This document shows, piece by piece, positions 36,111 to 42,355 of a DNA stretch of 55,818 bases. The notes below the pieces were generated by a model that was given only the letters and a program-made list of their open reading frames with translations, did no database searches and was not told the DNA's origin. The stretch is from Haliangiales bacterium. GTDB taxonomy: Bacteria; Myxococcota_A; Polyangia; Haliangiales; SHYZ01. The first letter of the stretch is position 1, and every line of letters begins with the position of its first letter. Position numbers and translations under genes: made by a program. Where the stretch lies: assembly GCA_046595695.1 (NCBI GenBank), contig JBKJOI010000659.1:1-55818 (forward strand). The letters run 5' to 3'.

Positions 36111-36800
36111 TCACTCGACGACGGGCAGCCGCACCGCGCCGCAGCTGGTGTCCTCGCGCTCGCCGGTGTCCGGAAAGAAGTCGAGCGGCGCGGGCGTGAC
36201 GCCGAGGAGCGCGCACTCGGCCTCGACGAGACGAGCGCACCAGCCGAGCGCGGGACCGTACACGGGGTCCGCCTTCACCGAGGGCTGGCCCGCCACGACG
36301 TGGGGGAACCGGCCCAGGTGGTCGGCCAGGAACTTGCGGCGCGCGTCCTCCACGATCTCGCAGCCCTCGGCGTCGCGCGCCTCGGTGAGCACGTGCTGCT
36401 TGAACAGCAGCGTCGCGTAGAACTCCAGCTCGACGGCCAGGTGGTCGAGCATCTCGTGGACCTGCTCGTCGTCGAGGATCAGGCCGAAGGCCAGGTAGAA
36501 GCCGGAGACGTCGGCGAGATCGTGACCCTTGCCGAGGCCGCGCATGCGCCCGTGCTCGGTCTCGTACAGCGAGACGCGGCCCTTGCCGCGGTCGAACAGC
36601 TCGATGTACGTGCCTTGCAACTCCTCGAGGCCGCGCGGGAGTGCGGCGATCATCGGCCCAACACCCTCGTGGCCCTCGAGGTGTTCGCGCAGCGCCGCGA
36701 GCGTCTCGCCCTGCTCCACATCGGGATAGCCGCTGGCCAGCGACGCGAGCGCGAACTCGCGCGCGCGCGCGGCCAGCCCCGGCCCGGGCGCGGCCGTCAT
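36111..36800 (-). CDS. TorD/DmsD-family maturation chaperone
   Basis: YIELFD, LYET, FYLAFG, DHLAVELEF, FLADHLGRF. Confidence 0.9.
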   Translation of the reverse strand: MTAAPGPGLAARAREFALASLASGYPDVEQGETLAALREHLEGHEGVGPMIAALPRGLEELQGTYIELFDRGKGRVSLYETEHGRMRGLGKGHDLADVSGFYLAFGLILDDEQVHEMLDHLAVELEFYATLLFKQHVLTEARDAEGCEIVEDARRKFLADHLGRFPHVVAGQPSVKADPVYGPALGWCARLVEAECALLGVTPAPLDFFPDTGEREDTSCGAVRLPVVE

Positions 36801-37711
36801 CACTGCACCCTCAGCGGCAGCCACGCCATCGTAACGCTCTTGCGCGAGCCGACCTCGCCCTTGCCGCCCTGCCACGCGGCGAAGGCCACGTACGCGGGGC
36901 CGCCCACCTGGAGCACCGAGCCACCCTCGACGACGAGCGGGCGCGTGATCACGAGCGCCCAGGTGCCGTCCCGCCACGCGCCCCGCGCCGCGCCGCTGTG
37001 CCCTTCCTGGACCGCGGAGGTCGAGAACCCCTCGGCGATGACCTCATCGACGCCGGTCTTGACGTACGATTGCGGATTGCCCGCGGCCCGGCCCGGCGAG
37101 AAGCTCTCCTTCTCGACATCGGTGCCACCCGGGGCGTCCTTGAAGTCCATCGGGTACATGTCGATCGAGAGGTTGGGATAGAGGGCCAGCATCTCCGGCT
37201 TGCCCTGCTCGGCGTCGCGCTGGTACTGCGCGCGCCAGTGGAAGATGTGCACGGGCAGATCCTTCGCGCCCATCATGACCGGCGTGCTGGGGCCGTCCTT
37301 GACCGGGAACTCGATCGCGAGCGCGTCGGAGAACTCGCCCAGCCGGCCCGCCTCGCTCTTCTCGGCATCCTTCCAGACCAGCCGGAACGCGATCGTCTTG
37401 CCGTCGTGCACCGCCTGCACGGCCACGAGCTCGGTGGTGGTGGTCTCCGGCCTCGGCGTGACCATCGGCTGCGCGACCAGCGAGATCGCGCCGCGCGGCA
37501 CGTTCCTCCAGTAGGCCGCGTCGGGGTCGGGCTTGCCGAGGTCGGCGCTCACGCGCTGGACCACCAGCTCGCTGATCGGCGTGGGTGGCGGCTCGACGAT
37601 GGGCGCGGTCGGCCGGGTCGGGCCCGAGCACGCGCTGCTCGCGCAGGCGATGGCGGTGACGGCGAGCCATCCGGGCAGGCCGCTGCGGTTCATCCAGATG
37701 CTACTCGTCAT
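36800..37711 (-). CDS. Gamma subunit (EbdC/NxrC-like heme b domain), lipoprotein
   Basis: VQAVHDGKTIAFRLVWKD, FSDALAIEFP, VMMG, VHIFHWRA, AFAAWQG..GSRKS; GGAG RBS. Confidence 0.88.
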   Translation of the reverse strand: MTSSIWMNRSGLPGWLAVTAIACASSACSGPTRPTAPIVEPPPTPISELVVQRVSADLGKPDPDAAYWRNVPRGAISLVAQPMVTPRPETTTTELVAVQAVHDGKTIAFRLVWKDAEKSEAGRLGEFSDALAIEFPVKDGPSTPVMMGAKDLPVHIFHWRAQYQRDAEQGKPEMLALYPNLSIDMYPMDFKDAPGGTDVEKESFSPGRAAGNPQSYVKTGVDEVIAEGFSTSAVQEGHSGAARGAWRDGTWALVITRPLVVEGGSVLQVGGPAYVAFAAWQGGKGEVGSRKSVTMAWLPLRVQ

Positions 37712-37739
37712 GGCGACGTCTCCGGGCATGGGTATCAGG

Positions 37740-38876: not shown

Positions 38877-38884
38877 GGGACTCC

Positions 38885-41800
38885 TCACTTCACCTGGGCG
38901 AACTGGCCCTTGAGGTACTGCAGCATCGCAGCGCTCTCGTAGCTGGGCCGGAAGCCCAGCGCGGCGGGGCGCCACAGCCCCACCCCACCGATGGCCCCGT
39001 CCTCGGCCTTGGTCACCTTGACGAAGGCCTCGCGCGGCGCGCCCACCGGACAATGCACGTCGGCCAGGAAGCCCTTCATGAGCTGCTGGCCGTACATGTC
39101 CTTGTGCACCAGCGTCTCGGTCATGAGCGTCGGCTTCAGCCAGGCGCGCGTGGCCGACTGGTGCGAGCCGAAGCGGTACATCGCCTGGTAGTTGGTCTCG
39201 GGGTTCTTGGCGAGCCCGTCGGGGCGGGTCGCCTGGCCTTTCACGCTGCCGTAGGTGGCGCCGTACATGTTGTGCCAGGTGCGCGCCACGCCGCGCGGCG
39301 TGCCCGGGTAGTAGCGGACGCGCAGCATCAGGCGCGCGACCTTGTACGCCTCGGTGCCGGCGACGAAGCCGCGGAACGGGCGGTCCTCGGGATCGGCGTC
39401 GACGTACGCGTAGTCACCGTCCTCGAGCCCGAGCTCCCGGGCGTCGACCGGGTGGATGTCCATGTACCCCTCGGTCACGCTGGGCAGCCGCTTGTCGTGC
39501 CGGTAGACGTCGCCGAACGGGCCGAACAGCACGCCGGTGAAGTCGGTGTCGACCGGCGTGGTGTGGGCGCCGTGTCGGTACTTGGGCGTGTGGTAGATGT
39601 GACGGAACCCCTGGGCCATGAGCGGGTGCCGGGTCGCCATCATCTGCGCGACGGTGAGCATCACGTGGCGCACCTGCCGGGTCTCGGTGGACAGGTCGTC
39701 GCGTCGGAGCCCGTAATCCTCGGGCTGCTTGGGCCGAAGCGCCGGGTGCGGCGCGGCGACGATTACGTTGGGCTCGTGGAAGGTCGAGTCGATCGGCTCG
39801 CGGTGCACGACCAGGTTCTCGCCGCTGTCGAGGAACTCCTGCTCGAAGCGGTAGAACTCGAGCCGCCCCGACTTGGTGTGCCAGGGCTGCTCGCCCTTGG
39901 CCTGCTCGTACGAGGACAGCCGGGGATACGTGCGCACGTTGACCAGCGCCGGGATGCCCTCCTGCGCGAGCCGGTGGAGCTCGGACACCTGGTAGCCCTT
40001 GAGCGAGAACGAGGCGTCGACGATGCGCTGCAGGTAGGCCTCGACGTTGTTGTCGTCGACGAACTTCCAGCCCTCGGCGAAGCGCGGCTCGTCGAAGACC
40101 TCGGCGAGCGCTTTGCCGACGCCCGCGATGATGTCGACGTCGCCCCGGGTGTCGAACACGCGCTTGAGCGGCGACTTGGGGAAGATCTGCACGAACGGGT
40201 TCGTGCAGCTCGCGGTCATGTCGATGTGCCGGAACTCGGCCCACGAGTCCGCCGCGAACACCAGGTCGGCGTATTCGCACGAGCCCGTCCACCACCAGTC
40301 GGCGAACGCGATGAACTCGATCTTGGGCAGCGTGTTGTTGACGACGTCGTAGTGCCACTTGACGTTGCCGATGACCGAGTTGCTGTTGTTCAGCCACATG
40401 GCCTTGGTCGGCGTCGGCAGGTGGCCCTTGCCGGTGAACAGATGGGGGCCCTGGCGCAGCGGCCTGTCGCCGTAGTTGAAGTAGTGCAGCGACTCGTAGT
40501 GGGAGTACTTCTTGAGCGCGACCGGGCCCTTGGGGTCGAGCTGGAGGTTGAACGGATCCTCGGCCACGTACGTCGGCATGCCGCCGAAGATGGCGGCGCG
40601 GTAGTTGCCCGCGTAGCTGCCCACGTTGCCACCGGGGAAACCGAGGTTGCGGGTGATCGCGGCCACCAGCAGGATCGCGCGATCCTTGAGATCGGCGTTG
40701 AAGAACTGGTTCGGACCCATGCCGGTGGCAAAGGTGGTCTTCTCGGGGTTCTGGGCGATCTGCCGGGCCAGCGACTCGATGGCGGCCGCCGGCGCCCCGG
40801 TGATCTCGGACACCTGCGCCGGGGTCATGTTGTCGTCGAGGTACTGGGTCAGCAGCGAGAAGTGCGTGCGCACCTCGACGTCGGTGCCATCCTTCAGCTT
40901 GACCGTGCGCCCGACCCTCAGGTCTGGGCGCTTCACCTTGGCGCGGGGGCCGACCTCGTGCCGGGTGACGGCGGTCAGCTTACCGGTGCGCTCGTCGACG
41001 ACGACGTAGGTCCCCAGATCGGGCAGGAGCGCCTCGGGCGCGAGCTGTTGCTTGTGGCCCAGCGCCGGCGGTGTCTTGCTGCCCTGCTTCACCACGGTCA
41101 GGCCGGCGATCGGCCTCGCCACGAAGCCGCGAAGCTCGGTGGGATGGAGATCCTCGGGGCGGAGCGGCGCCAGGCTGTCCATGCGGACCAGGAATGGCAG
41201 GTCGGTGTTGGTCCTGACCCAGGCGTCGTCGTAGAGCTTCTTGCTGAGGATCACCTGCGCCAGGCCCAGGGCGAACGCCGGGTCGGTGCCCGGACGGATC
41301 ACCACCACCTCGTCGGCCTTGGTGGCGGTCGCGCTGTACTCGACGGTGATCGCGACCACCTTGGTGCCCTTGAGTCTGGCCTCCGTGAGCCAGTGGCTGT
41401 CGGGCATCTTCGTGGTGATCCAGTTCATGCCCCAGACCAGGCACAGCTTCGAGTGCTCGACGGTGAAGAGATCGAAGTCATTGGTCTGCGACCCGGTCAC
41501 CATGGGGTGCCCGGGTGGCAGGTCGGTGTGCCAGGAGTAGCTGTCCCAGCCGCGGGCGCCGATCGCCTCGTCCGGACCGACGCCCCGGATCTTGGCGTCG
41601 GCCAGCGCCATCTGGTTGGCCAGGCGGTAGAGGCCGAAGATGCGCGTGGCGCCCAGGAACGCCATGCCCCCGCGGACCTTGACGGTCTGGGTGCCGGCGC
41701 TCTCGAGCGCCTCGATCATCGCCGGATCGTAGCCCTGGGCCTCGAGCCGCTTCTTGCCGTCCTCGCCGGAGTACTGGCGCGAGATGTTGGCTAGCGCCAG

Positions 41801-42355
41801 GGCCGCGTACCGGAACGAATCGTCCCACCCGAGCCGCAGCCAGGTGTCCTTGCCGCGCTGGAAGTACTTGGGATCAGGGCTGCCGGTGGTCGCATCGCGC
41901 GGGAACCCCGCGTCGGCCCAGTCCTTGAAGCCGCGCCGGATCATCGGCGCCTTCACGCGCCGGTCGCCGTAGATCCGCCGCACCAGCGCCAACCCTTTCT
42001 GGCACAGGCGCGGATCCCAGCGGTGTGACGAGCCGTTCCCGTAGAGATCCTTCGCCTTGCCGTAGCCGAAGGTGGGCCCGATGCGCACCAGCACGTTGTT
42101 CTTCACGTACGCGCGCAGCAGGCAGTTGTGCGTGTCGTTGGGCGCGCACAGGAACACGAAGGACGAGTCGGTCTTGAAGATGTCCCGGTAGGTGCGCTCC
42201 CATTCGCGGCTGGGATAGGCCGCGAGCGGGTTCTCGACCTGGGTGGGTTTGAGGAAGCGCAGCGGTGCCGCTTGGGCGCTCGCGGCGCCCAGCGCGGTGG
42301 CGCCGATCAGGCCCTTGAGGAAGAGCCGCCGACTGAACTGAGAGGAACCTGACAT
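38885..42355 (-). CDS. nxrA: Mo-bis-PGD alpha subunit, periplasmic NXR/NAR type (direction of catalysis unknown)
   Basis: Tat SRRLFLK; NPLAAYP; C-X3-D-X3-C-X39-C FS0 motif; [12 protein letters not shown]o-Asp; TPKYRHGAH. Confidence 0.85.

What the first reader, a model, noticed from the sequence alone, without database searches (positions are those of the whole stretch)
36111..42355. Periplasmic NXR-type molybdoenzyme in a probable myxobacterium
Seen: Tat signal, C-X3-D-X3-C-X39-C FS0 motif (39 residues counted), Asp Mo ligand, NxrB-like N-terminus, lipid-anchored gamma subunit and no NarI. Established: this Cys/Asp FS0 motif is that of Nitrospira/anammox-type NxrA, unlike the His-ligated NarG. 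Inference: the CAPNDTHNC variant belongs to the sister clade that includes Nitrotoga NXR and putative NARs. The eNOR/FNR context favours nitrate reduction, but nitrite oxidation by a heterotroph cannot be excluded.
Basis: partly seen in the sequence, partly recalled or inferred. Interest (0 to 1): 0.8.

Follow-up and report, generated by a model that had tools for sequence, protein, structure and literature searches.

The report
Periplasmic NXR-like nitrate/nitrite enzyme operon
A soil myxobacterium carries an intact operon for an exported molybdenum enzyme that interconverts nitrate and nitrite; it belongs to a widespread, already recognised sister group of the nitrite oxidoreductases of nitrifiers, and here it most likely respires nitrate.

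Summary
On the minus strand lie nxrA (38885-42355), nxrB (37740-38876), nxrC (36800-37732) and nxrD (36111-36803). NxrA has a twin-arginine signal, a C-X3-D-X3-C-X39-C cluster motif and the Asp molybdenum ligand. Its best solved relative is Kuenenia NXR (7B04; E 2.8e-263), far above PcrA, EbdA and NarG.

In my tree the protein falls outside the canonical Nitrospira/anammox clade (AU p 1.6e-51). It sits in a large sister clade found in at least 597 species genomes, 32 of 400 sampled Myxococcota among them. I could not obtain a Nitrotoga sequence, so that link rests on papers. The CAPNDTHNC spelling is not clade-specific.

The genome also holds NapA, NrfA and NosZ. I found no NarG, NarI, NirK, NirS or RuBisCO. 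Neighbours are Crp/FNR regulators, a hemerythrin and a tyrosine-less heme-copper oxidase. I read the enzyme as a cytochrome-c-fed periplasmic nitrate reductase (about 0.6); nitrite oxidation is not excluded.

This scan found the same enzyme type before on other DNA. It is a new member of a known kind.

The parts
38885..42355 (-). nxrA: Tat-exported molybdopterin catalytic subunit, 1156 aa, with a 3Cys/1Asp FS0 cluster site (C70, D74, C78, C118), substrate Asn73 and Mo ligand Asp278
   Evidence: PF00384; 7B04_B, E 2.8e-263, residues 7-1155; invariant columns; tree, AU test
37740..38876 (-). nxrB: iron-sulfur subunit, 378 aa, no signal peptide of its own; lacks the 8-residue insertion seen in Kuenenia NxrB
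   Evidence: Fer4_11; 7B04_A, E 9e-109; an 8-residue gap in the query between the last Cys groups
36800..37732 (-). nxrC: haem-b gamma subunit (EB_dh fold) with a signal peptide and a possible lipobox; Met/Lys haem ligands conserved; no transmembrane helix. Alternative starts at 37714 and 37696
   Evidence: PF09459; 7B04_C, E 4.9e-19; N-termini of 61 homologues; the only EB_dh gene in the genome
36111..36803 (-). nxrD: cytoplasmic NarJ/TorD-type assembly chaperone; its ATG overlaps the nxrC stop
   Evidence: PF02613, E 3e-17; TIGR03482, 72.9 bits, below the cut-off of 152.3
42382..43134 (-). upX: conserved gene of no known family, about 250 aa, ending 27 nt upstream of nxrA. It has four invariant Cys. 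The predicted structure is a V4R/H-NOX/Bet3-like domain followed by a small NifU-C-like domain. The start is uncertain (43128, 43134, 43143 or 43164)
   Evidence: homologue directly upstream of nxrA in 38 of 80 loci; alignment A2; no Pfam or NCBIfam family; pLDDT 94.2
35579..36079 (+). Class II (cytochrome c'-type, four-helix) c-type cytochrome, 166 aa, with a C-terminal C-T-S-C-H and a lipobox-like L-P-A-C. It is convergent with nxrD. I infer it as a candidate electron partner; this is not shown
   Evidence: PF01322, 33.5 bits against a cut-off of 26.5; not conserved beside nxr in the 80 loci
43259..44299 (+). moaA (molybdenum cofactor biosynthesis), divergent from upX; the true start is probably near 43316
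   Evidence: Radical_SAM + Mob_synth_C; moaA found in 29 of 80 related loci, mostly directly after nxrD
43259..43272 (.). FNR/CRP-like half-palindrome (2 mismatches to TTGAT-N4-ATCAA) in the upX-moaA divergent spacer; weak evidence
32012..33674 (.). Context: a Crp/FNR-family regulator (32012-33052, plus) and a hemerythrin (33096-33674, minus)
   Evidence: the same two gene kinds recur beside the cassette in close relatives

Best explanation
The region is an operon, upX-nxrA-nxrB-nxrC-nxrD, for a periplasmic nitrate/nitrite oxidoreductase of the NXR lineage.

Shown from sequence:
- NxrA carries a Tat signal, Mo-bisPGD ligated by Asp278, a 3Cys/1Asp FS0 cluster and the substrate Asn73.
- NxrB carries the Cys groups of the iron-sulfur chain.
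- NxrC is a secreted Met/Lys-ligated haem-b protein without a membrane helix.
- NxrD is a cytoplasmic chaperone.
- There is no NarI-type quinol oxidase in the operon or in the genome.

Inferred:
- NxrAB is folded in the cytoplasm with NxrD (and perhaps upX), then exported together by Tat.
- It docks on NxrC, which may be lipid-tethered.
- Under low oxygen, with FNR/CRP-type control, electrons flow from the quinol pool through a cytochrome bc-type complex to periplasmic c-type cytochromes. A candidate is the class II cytochrome c next door.
- They then pass to the NxrC haem, along the Fe-S chain to Mo, and reduce nitrate to nitrite in the periplasm.
- The genome's NrfA then reduces nitrite to ammonium.
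- Energy would be conserved only upstream, at the quinol-oxidising step.

The enzyme itself is expected to be reversible. The direction in the cell is the uncertain part.
For: Family:
- Full-length matches of A, B and C to Kuenenia NXR 7B04 (E 2.8e-263, 9e-109, 4.9e-19).
- In an IQ-TREE of 51 rows, the NXR-type superclade has support 100 against NarG-type and other outgroups. The query lies in a 33-row sister clade (support 100) next to a Kofleriaceae-labelled MAG.

Direction, in this genome:
- It is the only type II DMSOR alpha subunit in the genome, and there is no NarI.
- NrfA is present (446.7 bits), as is clade II NosZ (851 bits).
- No NirK over the cut-off, no NirS and no RuBisCO were found.
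- The window holds three Crp/FNR-family genes, a hemerythrin, and a haem-copper oxidase with Gln where the cross-linked Tyr should be.

Direction, in relatives:
- In six close Myxococcota loci the cassette sits beside Crp/FNR (2 of 6), hemerythrin (2 of 6) and moaA (5 of 6). In L003 it sits between NorQ/NorB/cytochrome c and a cd1 nitrite reductase.
- Of 32 other Myxococcota carriers, 23 have NrfA, NirS or NirK, and 17 have neither NarG nor NapA at my thresholds. Ten of those 17 still have a nitrite reductase, so the NXR-like enzyme is their only candidate source of nitrite from nitrate.
- 27 of the 32 have no RuBisCO-family hit; the five hits score only 56-97 bits.
- The clade holds enzymes of cultured haloarchaea, including a species named nitratireducens.

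Precedent:
- Kitzinger 2018 (passages) reports that the Hydrogenobacter thermophilus enzyme of the sister clade was characterised as a periplasmic nitrate reductase.
- The characterised Haloferax mediterranei pNar locus also pairs an EB_dh-type protein with Rieske and cytochrome b genes.
Against: - The genome also encodes NapA, split over two contig ends (518.7 and 343 bits, best family for both halves). The NXR-like enzyme is therefore not needed to make nitrite here.
- Thioalkalivibrio thiocyanoxidans ARh2 was the only cultured bacterium among the 80 closest loci (L075, 57%). It is reported unable to use any nitrogen oxide as electron acceptor (Berben 2017, passages). Carrying this enzyme type therefore does not predict nitrate respiration.
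- The clade shares an ancestor with enzymes that are exclusively NXRs, and papers place the nitrite oxidiser Nitrotoga in the sister clade.
- The Met/Lys haem b is of the high-potential kind (Chicano 2021), which suits either direction.
- The genome has three further haem-copper oxidases that could accept nitrite-derived electrons.
- No expression data exist. No partner cytochrome or bc complex is encoded in the operon. The class II cytochrome c is not conserved beside nxr in relatives.
- The FNR-like site has two mismatches.
- The genome is a 1016-contig MAG with 5% contamination, so presence and absence calls are soft.
Confidence: 0.6

Rival explanations
1. The same enzyme runs mainly in the oxidative direction in the cell. 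Periplasmic nitrite is oxidised to nitrate, and the electrons go through NxrC and c-type cytochromes to a haem-copper oxidase. This would detoxify nitrite or give a heterotroph extra energy (lithoheterotrophy).
For: - It is sister to the canonical NXRs.
- Papers place Nitrotoga NXR in the sister clade and note that its nitrate-reducing members might also oxidise nitrite (Kitzinger 2018).
- The haem ligands are of the high-potential Met/Lys type.
- A class II cytochrome c lies next door, and the genome has four haem-copper oxidase genes.
- NapA is already present for nitrate reduction.
- T. thiocyanoxidans carries this enzyme type but does not respire nitrate.
Against: - No RuBisCO was found, and no ATP-citrate lyase hit either, though the control for the latter was silent.
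- The neighbours are FNR/CRP-type regulators, a hemerythrin and a tyrosine-less oxidase, a low-oxygen nitrogen-oxide context.
- In L003 the cassette lies within nir/nor genes.
- 23 of 32 Myxococcota carriers have nitrite reductases that would compete for nitrite.
- No myxobacterial nitrite oxidation appears in the papers listed by my searches (listings only).
Confidence: 0.2
2. The enzyme acts on another oxyanion or substrate (chlorate, perchlorate, selenate, or a hydrocarbon or sulfide as in Ebd/Ddh) rather than nitrate/nitrite.
For: - The four subunits hit the generic 'DMSO reductase type II' NCBIfam models best.
- One member of a related 90% cluster is labelled 'perchlorate reductase subunit alpha' by its depositor.
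- No member of the Myxococcota branch has been assayed.
Against: - All four NCBIfam type II scores are below the curated cut-offs: 260.2 against 984.75, 266.3 against 480.7, 139.5 against 169.85, and 72.9 against 152.3. The EbdA equivalog scores 141.3 against 2000.
- PcrA and EbdA structures score 154.5 and 124 bits, against 879.8 for NXR.
- The substrate-coordinating Asn, which is Ile in EbdA according to Chicano 2021, is kept here as N73.
- The genomic company is nitrogen-oxide genes.
Confidence: 0.08
3. The operon is a recently transferred, silent or decaying cassette with no role in this host.
For: - Its distribution is patchy: 32 of 400 sampled Myxococcota species genomes carry it, and 0 of 8 in the same order.
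- A related plasmid copy in Natronococcus occultus SP4 is split into two ORFs.
- The nar/nor/nos genes of Thioalkalivibrio paradoxus are called apparently non-functional by Berben 2017.
Against: - All five reading frames are intact, with the third-position G+C of the host (0.85-0.95), coupled start and stop codons, and every cofactor ligand conserved.
- moaA and regulators lie next to it.
Confidence: 0.05

Closest known systems
Kuenenia stuttgartiensis nitrite oxidoreductase NXR-ABC (PDB 7B04; Chicano et al. 2021, PMC8387239)
   Same: Full-length homology of the A, B and C subunits. It shares the Tat signal, the 3Cys/1Asp FS0 site, the substrate Asn, the Asp Mo ligand and the Met/Lys haem b in an EB_dh-fold gamma subunit. 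Neither has a membrane quinol subunit.
   Different: - Identity is only about 41% to an anammox-like representative (P0129). Chicano 2021 gives about 60% between Kuenenia and canonical nitrite oxidisers.
- My tree places it outside that clade.
- NxrB lacks the 8-residue insertion.
- No NXR-T tubule subunit homologue was identified. The neighbouring four-helix cytochrome c resembles it only in general type; this was not tested.
- The host is a heterotroph, with no anammoxosome.
Sister clade of the periplasmic NXRs: Ca. Nitrotoga NxrABCD plus putative or proven periplasmic nitrate reductases such as that of Hydrogenobacter thermophilus (Kitzinger et al. 2018, PMC6050957; Boddicker & Mosier 2018 preprint)
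   Same: - It is sister to the canonical clade.
- It falls in the roughly 40% identity tier to anammox NXR.
- NxrB lacks the 8-residue insertion.
- The A-B-C-D gene order is the same, with a secreted gamma subunit lacking a membrane helix.
- Similar TIGR03479 E-values are reported for Nitrotoga NxrA (compared).
   Different: - No Nitrotoga or Hydrogenobacter sequence could be put in my tree, so co-membership is inferred.
- The Mo-site pattern ending in Q-M reported for Nitrotoga was found in none of the 465 proteins over 700 aa scanned.
- Nitrotoga's downstream P-loop NTPase gene is absent here.
- Here there is an upstream upX gene, and NxrC is about 310 aa against 371-372 aa.
Haloferax mediterranei pNarGH (outward-facing nitrate reductase; locus L107)
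   Same: A Tat-exported alpha subunit facing outwards, a NarH-type beta subunit, an EB_dh-related protein in the locus and no NarI. It is a working model for cytochrome-bc-fed nitrate reduction outside the membrane.
   Different: - Identity is only 27.6% over 49% of the query.
- It groups with NarG-type outgroups in my tree.
- Its FS0 motif starts with His (H-S-V-N-C-T-G-S-C).
- Rieske and cytochrome b genes are in its operon, which is not the case here.
NarGHI membrane-bound nitrate reductase (E. coli; PDB 1Q16)
   Same: The same enzyme superfamily and the same chemistry (nitrate/nitrite oxygen-atom transfer at Mo-bisPGD with an Asp ligand).
   Different: NarGHI faces the cytoplasm, has no Tat signal, has a His-ligated FS0 and uses the NarI quinol oxidase. 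The scores are 119.2 bits and TIGR01580 136.7 against 1084.15.

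Membership tests
Type II DMSO reductase family (alpha-beta-gamma-delta molybdoenzymes) | Mo-bisPGD alpha subunit with an Asp Mo ligand and an N-terminal FS0 cluster; four-cluster beta; EB_dh haem-b gamma; TorD/NarJ-type delta | tested here: met
   PF00384, Fer4_11, PF09459 and PF02613. D278 and the FS0 residues align with 7B04. The Cys groups of NxrB align with 7B04_A.
Type II DMSO reductase family (alpha-beta-gamma-delta molybdoenzymes) | Score above the curated cut-offs of NCBIfam TIGR03479 / 03478 / 03477 / 03482 | tested here: not met
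   260.2 against 984.75; 266.3 against 480.7; 139.5 against 169.85; 72.9 against 152.3. The best-matching models are these, but the NXR lineage lies outside their trusted range.
Canonical periplasmic NXR (Nitrospira / Nitrospina / anammox clade) | Tat signal, 3Cys/1Asp FS0, substrate Asn, Asp Mo ligand | tested here: met
   Chicano 2021 says this FS0 coordination occurs in both NXRs and NARs depending on lineage, so these features do not separate the two.
Canonical periplasmic NXR (Nitrospira / Nitrospina / anammox clade) | Phylogenetic placement inside the clade | tested here: not met
   The canonical clade (8 rows: an anammox-like representative, a Tectomicrobia sequence and six Nitrospirota genomes) has support 100 and excludes the query. 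Forcing the query into it costs 411 log-likelihood units, AU p 1.6e-51. The group was named after a first tree had been seen.
Canonical periplasmic NXR (Nitrospira / Nitrospina / anammox clade) | About 60% identity to Kuenenia NxrA; 8-residue insertion in NxrB | tested here: not met
   41% to P0129, which itself scores 1590.1 bits against 7B04_B. There is an 8-residue gap in the query NxrB against 7B04_A.
Canonical periplasmic NXR (Nitrospira / Nitrospina / anammox clade) | Nitrite-oxidising physiology of the host | not testable with these tools
   The host is an uncultured MAG. No RNA run was listed.
Sister clade of periplasmic NXR/NAR (Nitrotoga / Hydrogenobacter type) | Sister position to the canonical clade; about 40% identity tier; NxrB without the insertion; secreted gamma without a membrane helix | tested here: met
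   (support 94 for SAR202 plus the sister clade, 100 for the 33-row clade).
Sister clade of periplasmic NXR/NAR (Nitrotoga / Hydrogenobacter type) | Clusters with an actual Nitrotoga or Hydrogenobacter sequence | not tested
   No such named sequence was returned.
NarGHI-type cytoplasmic nitrate reductase | His-X3-Cys FS0, no Tat signal, NarI membrane subunit, TIGR01580 above cut-off | tested here: not met
   The FS0 starts with Cys and has Asp. A Tat signal is present. No PF02665 match in the genome. TIGR01580 scores 136.7 against 1084.15.
Pcr / Ser / Clr / Ebd / Ddh group | Closest similarity to these enzymes | tested here: not met
   PcrA (4YDD) 154.5 bits and EbdA (2IVF) 124 bits, against 879.8 for NXR. 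The EbdA equivalog scores 141.3 against 2000. No Ser, Clr or Ddh sequence was available for the tree.

The most novel reading that the evidence does not exclude
A heterotrophic myxobacterium uses this lipid-tethered periplasmic enzyme in both directions. It reduces nitrate when oxygen is scarce. When oxygen returns, it oxidises nitrite to nitrate and passes the electrons through the neighbouring class II cytochrome c to a haem-copper oxidase. Non-autotrophic soil bacteria would then be an unrecognised source of nitrate. The conserved four-cysteine V4R/H-NOX-like protein upX would be the dedicated sensor or maturation factor of this module.
Probability: 0.12. Interest if true: 0.75.

Novelty: new member of a known kind. 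Interest (0 to 1): 0.3.

Why it matters
Gene surveys count nxrA-like genes as a sign of nitrification. This case shows again that a large part of the NXR-type family sits in heterotrophs and predators that look like nitrate or nitrite respirers. The family occurs in at least 597 species genomes, including about 8% of sampled Myxococcota. Neither the aspartate motif nor its exact spelling tells the two roles apart.

No member of the Myxococcota/Bdellovibrionota branch has been assayed. One biochemical test on this branch would therefore fix the annotation of hundreds of genomes. The upstream four-cysteine gene, conserved in 38 of 80 loci and of no known family, is a concrete, testable unknown in the assembly or control of these enzymes.

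Tried and rejected
- **Hunting a Nitrotoga reference sequence.** I used three homologue searches, three cluster look-ups and a motif scan for the published Q-M Mo-site pattern (none found). I also searched the order of the MAG behind L072, which is labelled Burkholderiales but whose order held only 40 genomes. None gave a Nitrotoga sequence, so that membership stays untested.
- **Conserved partner cytochrome.** A scan of the 80 loci for small proteins with a C-terminal CXXCH gave 2 hits in 2 loci, both spurious by eye. tblastn with the window's class II cytochrome c gave 0 of 80.
- **The 600-aa ORF downstream (33713-35515).** It has no family and no homologue beside nxr in the 80 loci, so I do not count it as part of the system.
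- **ATP-citrate lyase search.** No hit, but the control was silent too, so it is uninformative.
- **upX family assignment.** No Pfam or NCBIfam hit. Foldseek found nothing at E <= 0.001. The Atlas hits score 0.79-0.80, which makes them leads only. A paper search for V4R together with NXR/NAR terms listed 8 papers, none holding 'V4R'.
- **Rejected idea: the CAPNDTHNC spelling marks the sister clade**.
- **Not used:** Complex prediction, because I claim no specific binding pair.

Full report
**What is there**

The window is 66-76% G+C. Reading frames chosen by third-position G+C give a tight minus-strand gene row.

- nxrA runs from 38885 to 42355 (1156 aa).
- nxrB runs from 37740 to 38876. Its real start is Met60 of the long ORF, because the alignment to Kuenenia NxrB begins there.
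- nxrC runs from 36800 to 37732.
- nxrD runs from 36111 to 36803, and its ATG overlaps the nxrC stop.

Pfam assigns Molybdopterin, Fer4_11, EB_dh and Nitrate_red_del to the four proteins. NCBIfam's best models are the four 'DMSO reductase type II' subunit models, but all four score below their curated cut-offs. narG and ebdA score far below theirs.

NxrA begins with S-R-R-L-F-L-K. The cluster motif reads C-A-P-N-D-T-H-N-C, then 39 residues by my count, then C. Against the Kuenenia NXR structure 7B04 the match is full length (E 2.8e-263, 879.8 bits). The residues that Chicano et al. 2021 name (passages read) line up as follows:

- C67, D71, C75 and C115 of FS0 with C70, D74, C78 and C118;
- the substrate Asn70 with N73;
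- the Mo ligand Asp275 with D278.

These columns are invariant or nearly so across an alignment down to 39% identity. NxrB matches 7B04_A (E 9e-109) with all Cys groups aligned, but it lacks eight residues between the last two groups. NxrC matches 7B04_C (E 4.9e-19), and Met and Lys stand at the haem-ligand positions M155 and K305. The genome has no NarI and only this one EB_dh gene. Only the lipid anchor of NxrC remains a prediction.

**Which clade**

Chicano et al. report that Kuenenia NxrA is about 60% identical to the enzymes of nitrite oxidisers, about 40% to Nitrotoga and Hydrogenobaculum, and about 20% to NarG-type enzymes.

A search of 1.84 billion 50%-identity representatives gave few full-length relatives. 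Their identities to the query are:

| Representative | Label | Identity |
|---|---|---|
| P0127 | Gaiellaceae | 53% |
| P0128 | SAR202 | 44% |
| P0129 | anammox-like | 41% |
| P0312 | Tectomicrobia | 38% |
| P0132 | none | 37% |
| outgroups | various | 27-30% |

P0129 scores 1590.1 bits against 7B04_B, so it stands for the canonical clade.

A FastTree of 97 rows and an IQ-TREE (LG+G4, short search) of 51 rows agree. The NXR-type superclade separates from the E. coli NarZ, Haloferax NarG and other outgroups with support 100. Inside it, a canonical clade of 8 rows (including six Nitrospirota genomes that read C-S-P-N-D-T-H-A-C) has support 100. A 33-row sister clade has support 100 and contains the query, next to a Kofleriaceae-labelled MAG at 80-81% identity.

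Holding the query together with the canonical clade is rejected (411 log-likelihood units worse, AU p 1.6e-51). That group was named after a tree had been seen.

The sister clade in my sample holds Myxococcota, Bdellovibrionota, Planctomycetota, Acidobacteriota, Thioploca, Parabeggiatoa, Thioalkalivibrio, Gaiellales, Rokubacteria and Chloroflexota. It also holds haloalkaliphilic archaea (Natronococcus occultus, Halobiforma nitratireducens, Natrinema pellirubrum), Inmirania thermothiophila and Ca. Magnetominusculus.

This fits the 'sister clade' that Kitzinger et al. 2018 describe around Nitrotoga (passages). It also fits the two periplasmic NxrA/NarG groups of 665 and 581 sequences in the Microflora Danica study (passages). 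I never obtained a Nitrotoga or Hydrogenobacter sequence, so that identification is by identity tier, by the missing NxrB insertion and by elimination. It is not a direct test.

The nine-residue spelling CAPNDTHNC is not diagnostic. P0129 has it. Sister-clade members also read CTPNDTHNC, or CTPNCTHNC with all four ligands Cys.

**How common**

- The homologue search listed 119 other proteins at 68-81% identity, out of 2495 with E <= 1e-20 among 8000 scored candidates.
- A pattern scan of one genome per species found at least 597 stretches encoding a relative.
- In an even sample of the window's own phylum, 32 of 400 other genomes have a match at E <= 1e-100, and 0 of 8 in the same order.
- One of those same-phylum genomes (G189) is identical over 3426 bases to locus L048, whose public title says Myxococcota.
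- The scan's own notebook shows the same enzyme type reported repeatedly on other genomes.

**Conserved neighbours**

tblastn of the window's proteins against the 80 loci, some of which are short, found nxrB in 66, nxrC in 61 and nxrD in 54. moaA was in 29, mostly directly after nxrD, and a hemerythrin in 4. A cytochrome b like the window's cyt b-ferredoxin-FlpD fusion was in 6.

The ORF that ends 27 nt upstream of nxrA (upX, 42382 to about 43134) has a homologue directly upstream of nxrA in 38 of the 80 loci. All 38 are in the branch at 62% identity or more to the query (Myxococcota, Bdellovibrionota and a few others). The 39-sequence alignment has four invariant cysteines. It has no Pfam or NCBIfam family.

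The AlphaFold model is confident (pLDDT 94.2). Its first 165 residues resemble the Bet3 / V4R / H-NOX / phenol-sensor fold. Foldseek's best E-value is 3.4e-3. VIA-align gives Z 8.6 over 130 residues to Bet3 and Z 8.0 over 137 residues to DmpR. Residues 170-240 resemble the NifU C-terminal domain (Z 8.2, rmsd 2.1 over 67 residues). These Z values are in the range the tool calls middling. The fold assignment is therefore a lead, and the function is unknown.

**Direction of the reaction**

For nitrate reduction:

- The genome (8.19 Mb, 1016 contigs, 93% complete, 5% contamination) has NrfA (with a small upstream ORF) and clade II NosZ. It has no NirK over the cut-off, no NirS and no RuBisCO.
- The window carries three Crp/FNR-family genes, a hemerythrin, a DGC-domain gene, SCO, and a haem-copper oxidase whose active-site motif reads G-H-Q-S-Q-Q-V. 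It has no tyrosine four residues after the histidine. Murali et al. 2024 take loss of that tyrosine to mean the enzyme does not reduce O2 (passages). I did not test membership of the eNOR family further.
- FNR-like palindromes are over-represented (17 against 1.76 expected). One two-mismatch site lies in the upX-moaA spacer.
- In six close Myxococcota loci I found Crp/FNR next to upX in two, a hemerythrin in two and moaA in five. In L003 there is a NorQ-NorB-cytochrome c set upstream and a cd1 nitrite reductase downstream.
- Among the 32 Myxococcota carriers, 4 have NarG and 12 have a NapA-like match (15 with either). NrfA is in 14, NirS in 7 and NirK in 12 (23 with any). Ten have a nitrite reductase but neither NarG nor NapA. 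Five have weak RuBisCO-family hits (56-97 bits). Relatives are not independent, and these are MAGs.

Against nitrate reduction:

- This genome also has NapA, split over two contig ends.
- Thioalkalivibrio thiocyanoxidans ARh2 carries a sister-clade enzyme (L075) but is reported unable to use nitrogen oxides as acceptors.
- The lineage shares its ancestor with true NXRs.
- The Met/Lys haem, a class II cytochrome c next door (PF01322) and three other oxidases would serve nitrite oxidation equally well.
- No RNA run was listed.

I therefore put nitrate reduction at about 0.6, nitrite oxidation as the main role at about 0.2, another substrate at about 0.08 and a silent cassette at about 0.05.

**Mechanism, shown and inferred**

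The cofactor sites, the export signals, the soluble or tethered architecture and the lack of a quinol-oxidising subunit are shown from sequence. The following are inferred:

- co-export of NxrB with NxrA;
- electron supply from a bc-type complex through c-type cytochromes to the NxrC haem, by analogy with the Haloferax pNar locus (Rieske, cytochrome b, narG, narH, EB_dh-related) and the bc1 genes beside the Thermogutta enzyme (Elcheninov 2017, passages);
- FNR-type control;
- hand-over of nitrite to NrfA.

**Verdict**

This is a correctly read, intact operon of a known, widespread but biochemically thin lineage, so it is a new member of a known kind. The one new element is the conserved upstream four-cysteine gene.

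Noticed in passing
window 42382-43134 (minus); homologues in L002-L048: A conserved gene of no known family (upX) lies directly upstream of nxrA in 38 of 80 related loci. It has four invariant Cys. The confident model shows a V4R/H-NOX/Bet3-like domain plus a NifU-C-like domain.
   Followed up: partly
window 35579-36079 (plus): A small class II (cytochrome c'-type) c-type cytochrome with a lipobox-like signal, hidden at the end of a long spurious ORF and convergent with nxrD. It is not conserved beside nxr in relatives.
   Followed up: partly
window 22898-29816 (minus): A gene row: a cytochrome b-ferredoxin-FlpD fusion, an SCO1 gene, a haem-copper oxidase subunit I lacking the active-site Tyr (G-H-Q-S-Q-Q-V), a cupredoxin subunit II, and a 473-aa polytopic membrane protein with no family. 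It is probably a nitric-oxide reductase module. Its family (eNOR or another) was not determined.
   Followed up: partly
window 1840-4740 (minus) and 17132-21109 (minus): Two very large proteins (966 and 1325 aa) whose only Pfam hit is the middle domain of the hydrazine synthase alpha subunit (E 7.2e-5, below the cut-off, and 2.7e-7, above it).
   Followed up: no
window 33713-35515 (minus): A 600-aa ORF with strong coding signal (third-position G+C 0.95) and no Pfam or NCBIfam family. No homologue lies beside nxr in the 80 loci.
   Followed up: partly
G000:C476:4063-5481 and G000:C288:18-980 (L082, L083): NapA of the same MAG is split across two contig ends. NapA is the best family for both halves.
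   Followed up: yes
P0490, P0492, P0534, P0501: One branch of the sister clade (Inmirania, Ca. Magnetominusculus and unnamed relatives) has an all-cysteine FS0 motif (C-T-P-N-C-T-H-N-C), while its haloarchaeal neighbours keep the Asp. The Asp/Cys ligand therefore switches within the clade.
   Followed up: no
L089 5651-9201: The Natronococcus occultus SP4 plasmid copy of the alpha subunit is split into a 135-aa and a 1048-aa ORF and is not annotated. A P-loop NTPase gene lies upstream, like the one reported beside the Nitrotoga nxr operon. A 1169-aa protein from the same species (P0456), found on a 4.01-Mb contig, is full length.
   Followed up: partly
L075; G003: Thioalkalivibrio thiocyanoxidans ARh2, reported as unable to respire nitrogen oxides, carries a complete sister-clade nxrABCD-like cluster (57% identity).
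   Followed up: partly
L003 1396-4363 and 21649-23451: In a Polyangiales-labelled MAG the upX-nxrABCD-moaA cassette is flanked by NorQ, a NorB-like oxidase, a cytochrome c and CtaA on one side, and by a cd1 nitrite reductase on the other.
   Followed up: no
whole window: TTGAT-N4-ATCAA-like palindromes (up to 2 mismatches) occur 17 times against 1.76 expected from shuffles. Intergenic ones lie at 30807-30820 and 43259-43272.
   Followed up: no
G002 (L079), L012, L054: MAGs labelled Nitrospirales or Nitrospinota carry the sister-clade enzyme (58-72% identity to the query), not the canonical NXR. Taxon labels alone can therefore mislead nxrA-based calls of nitrifiers.
   Followed up: no
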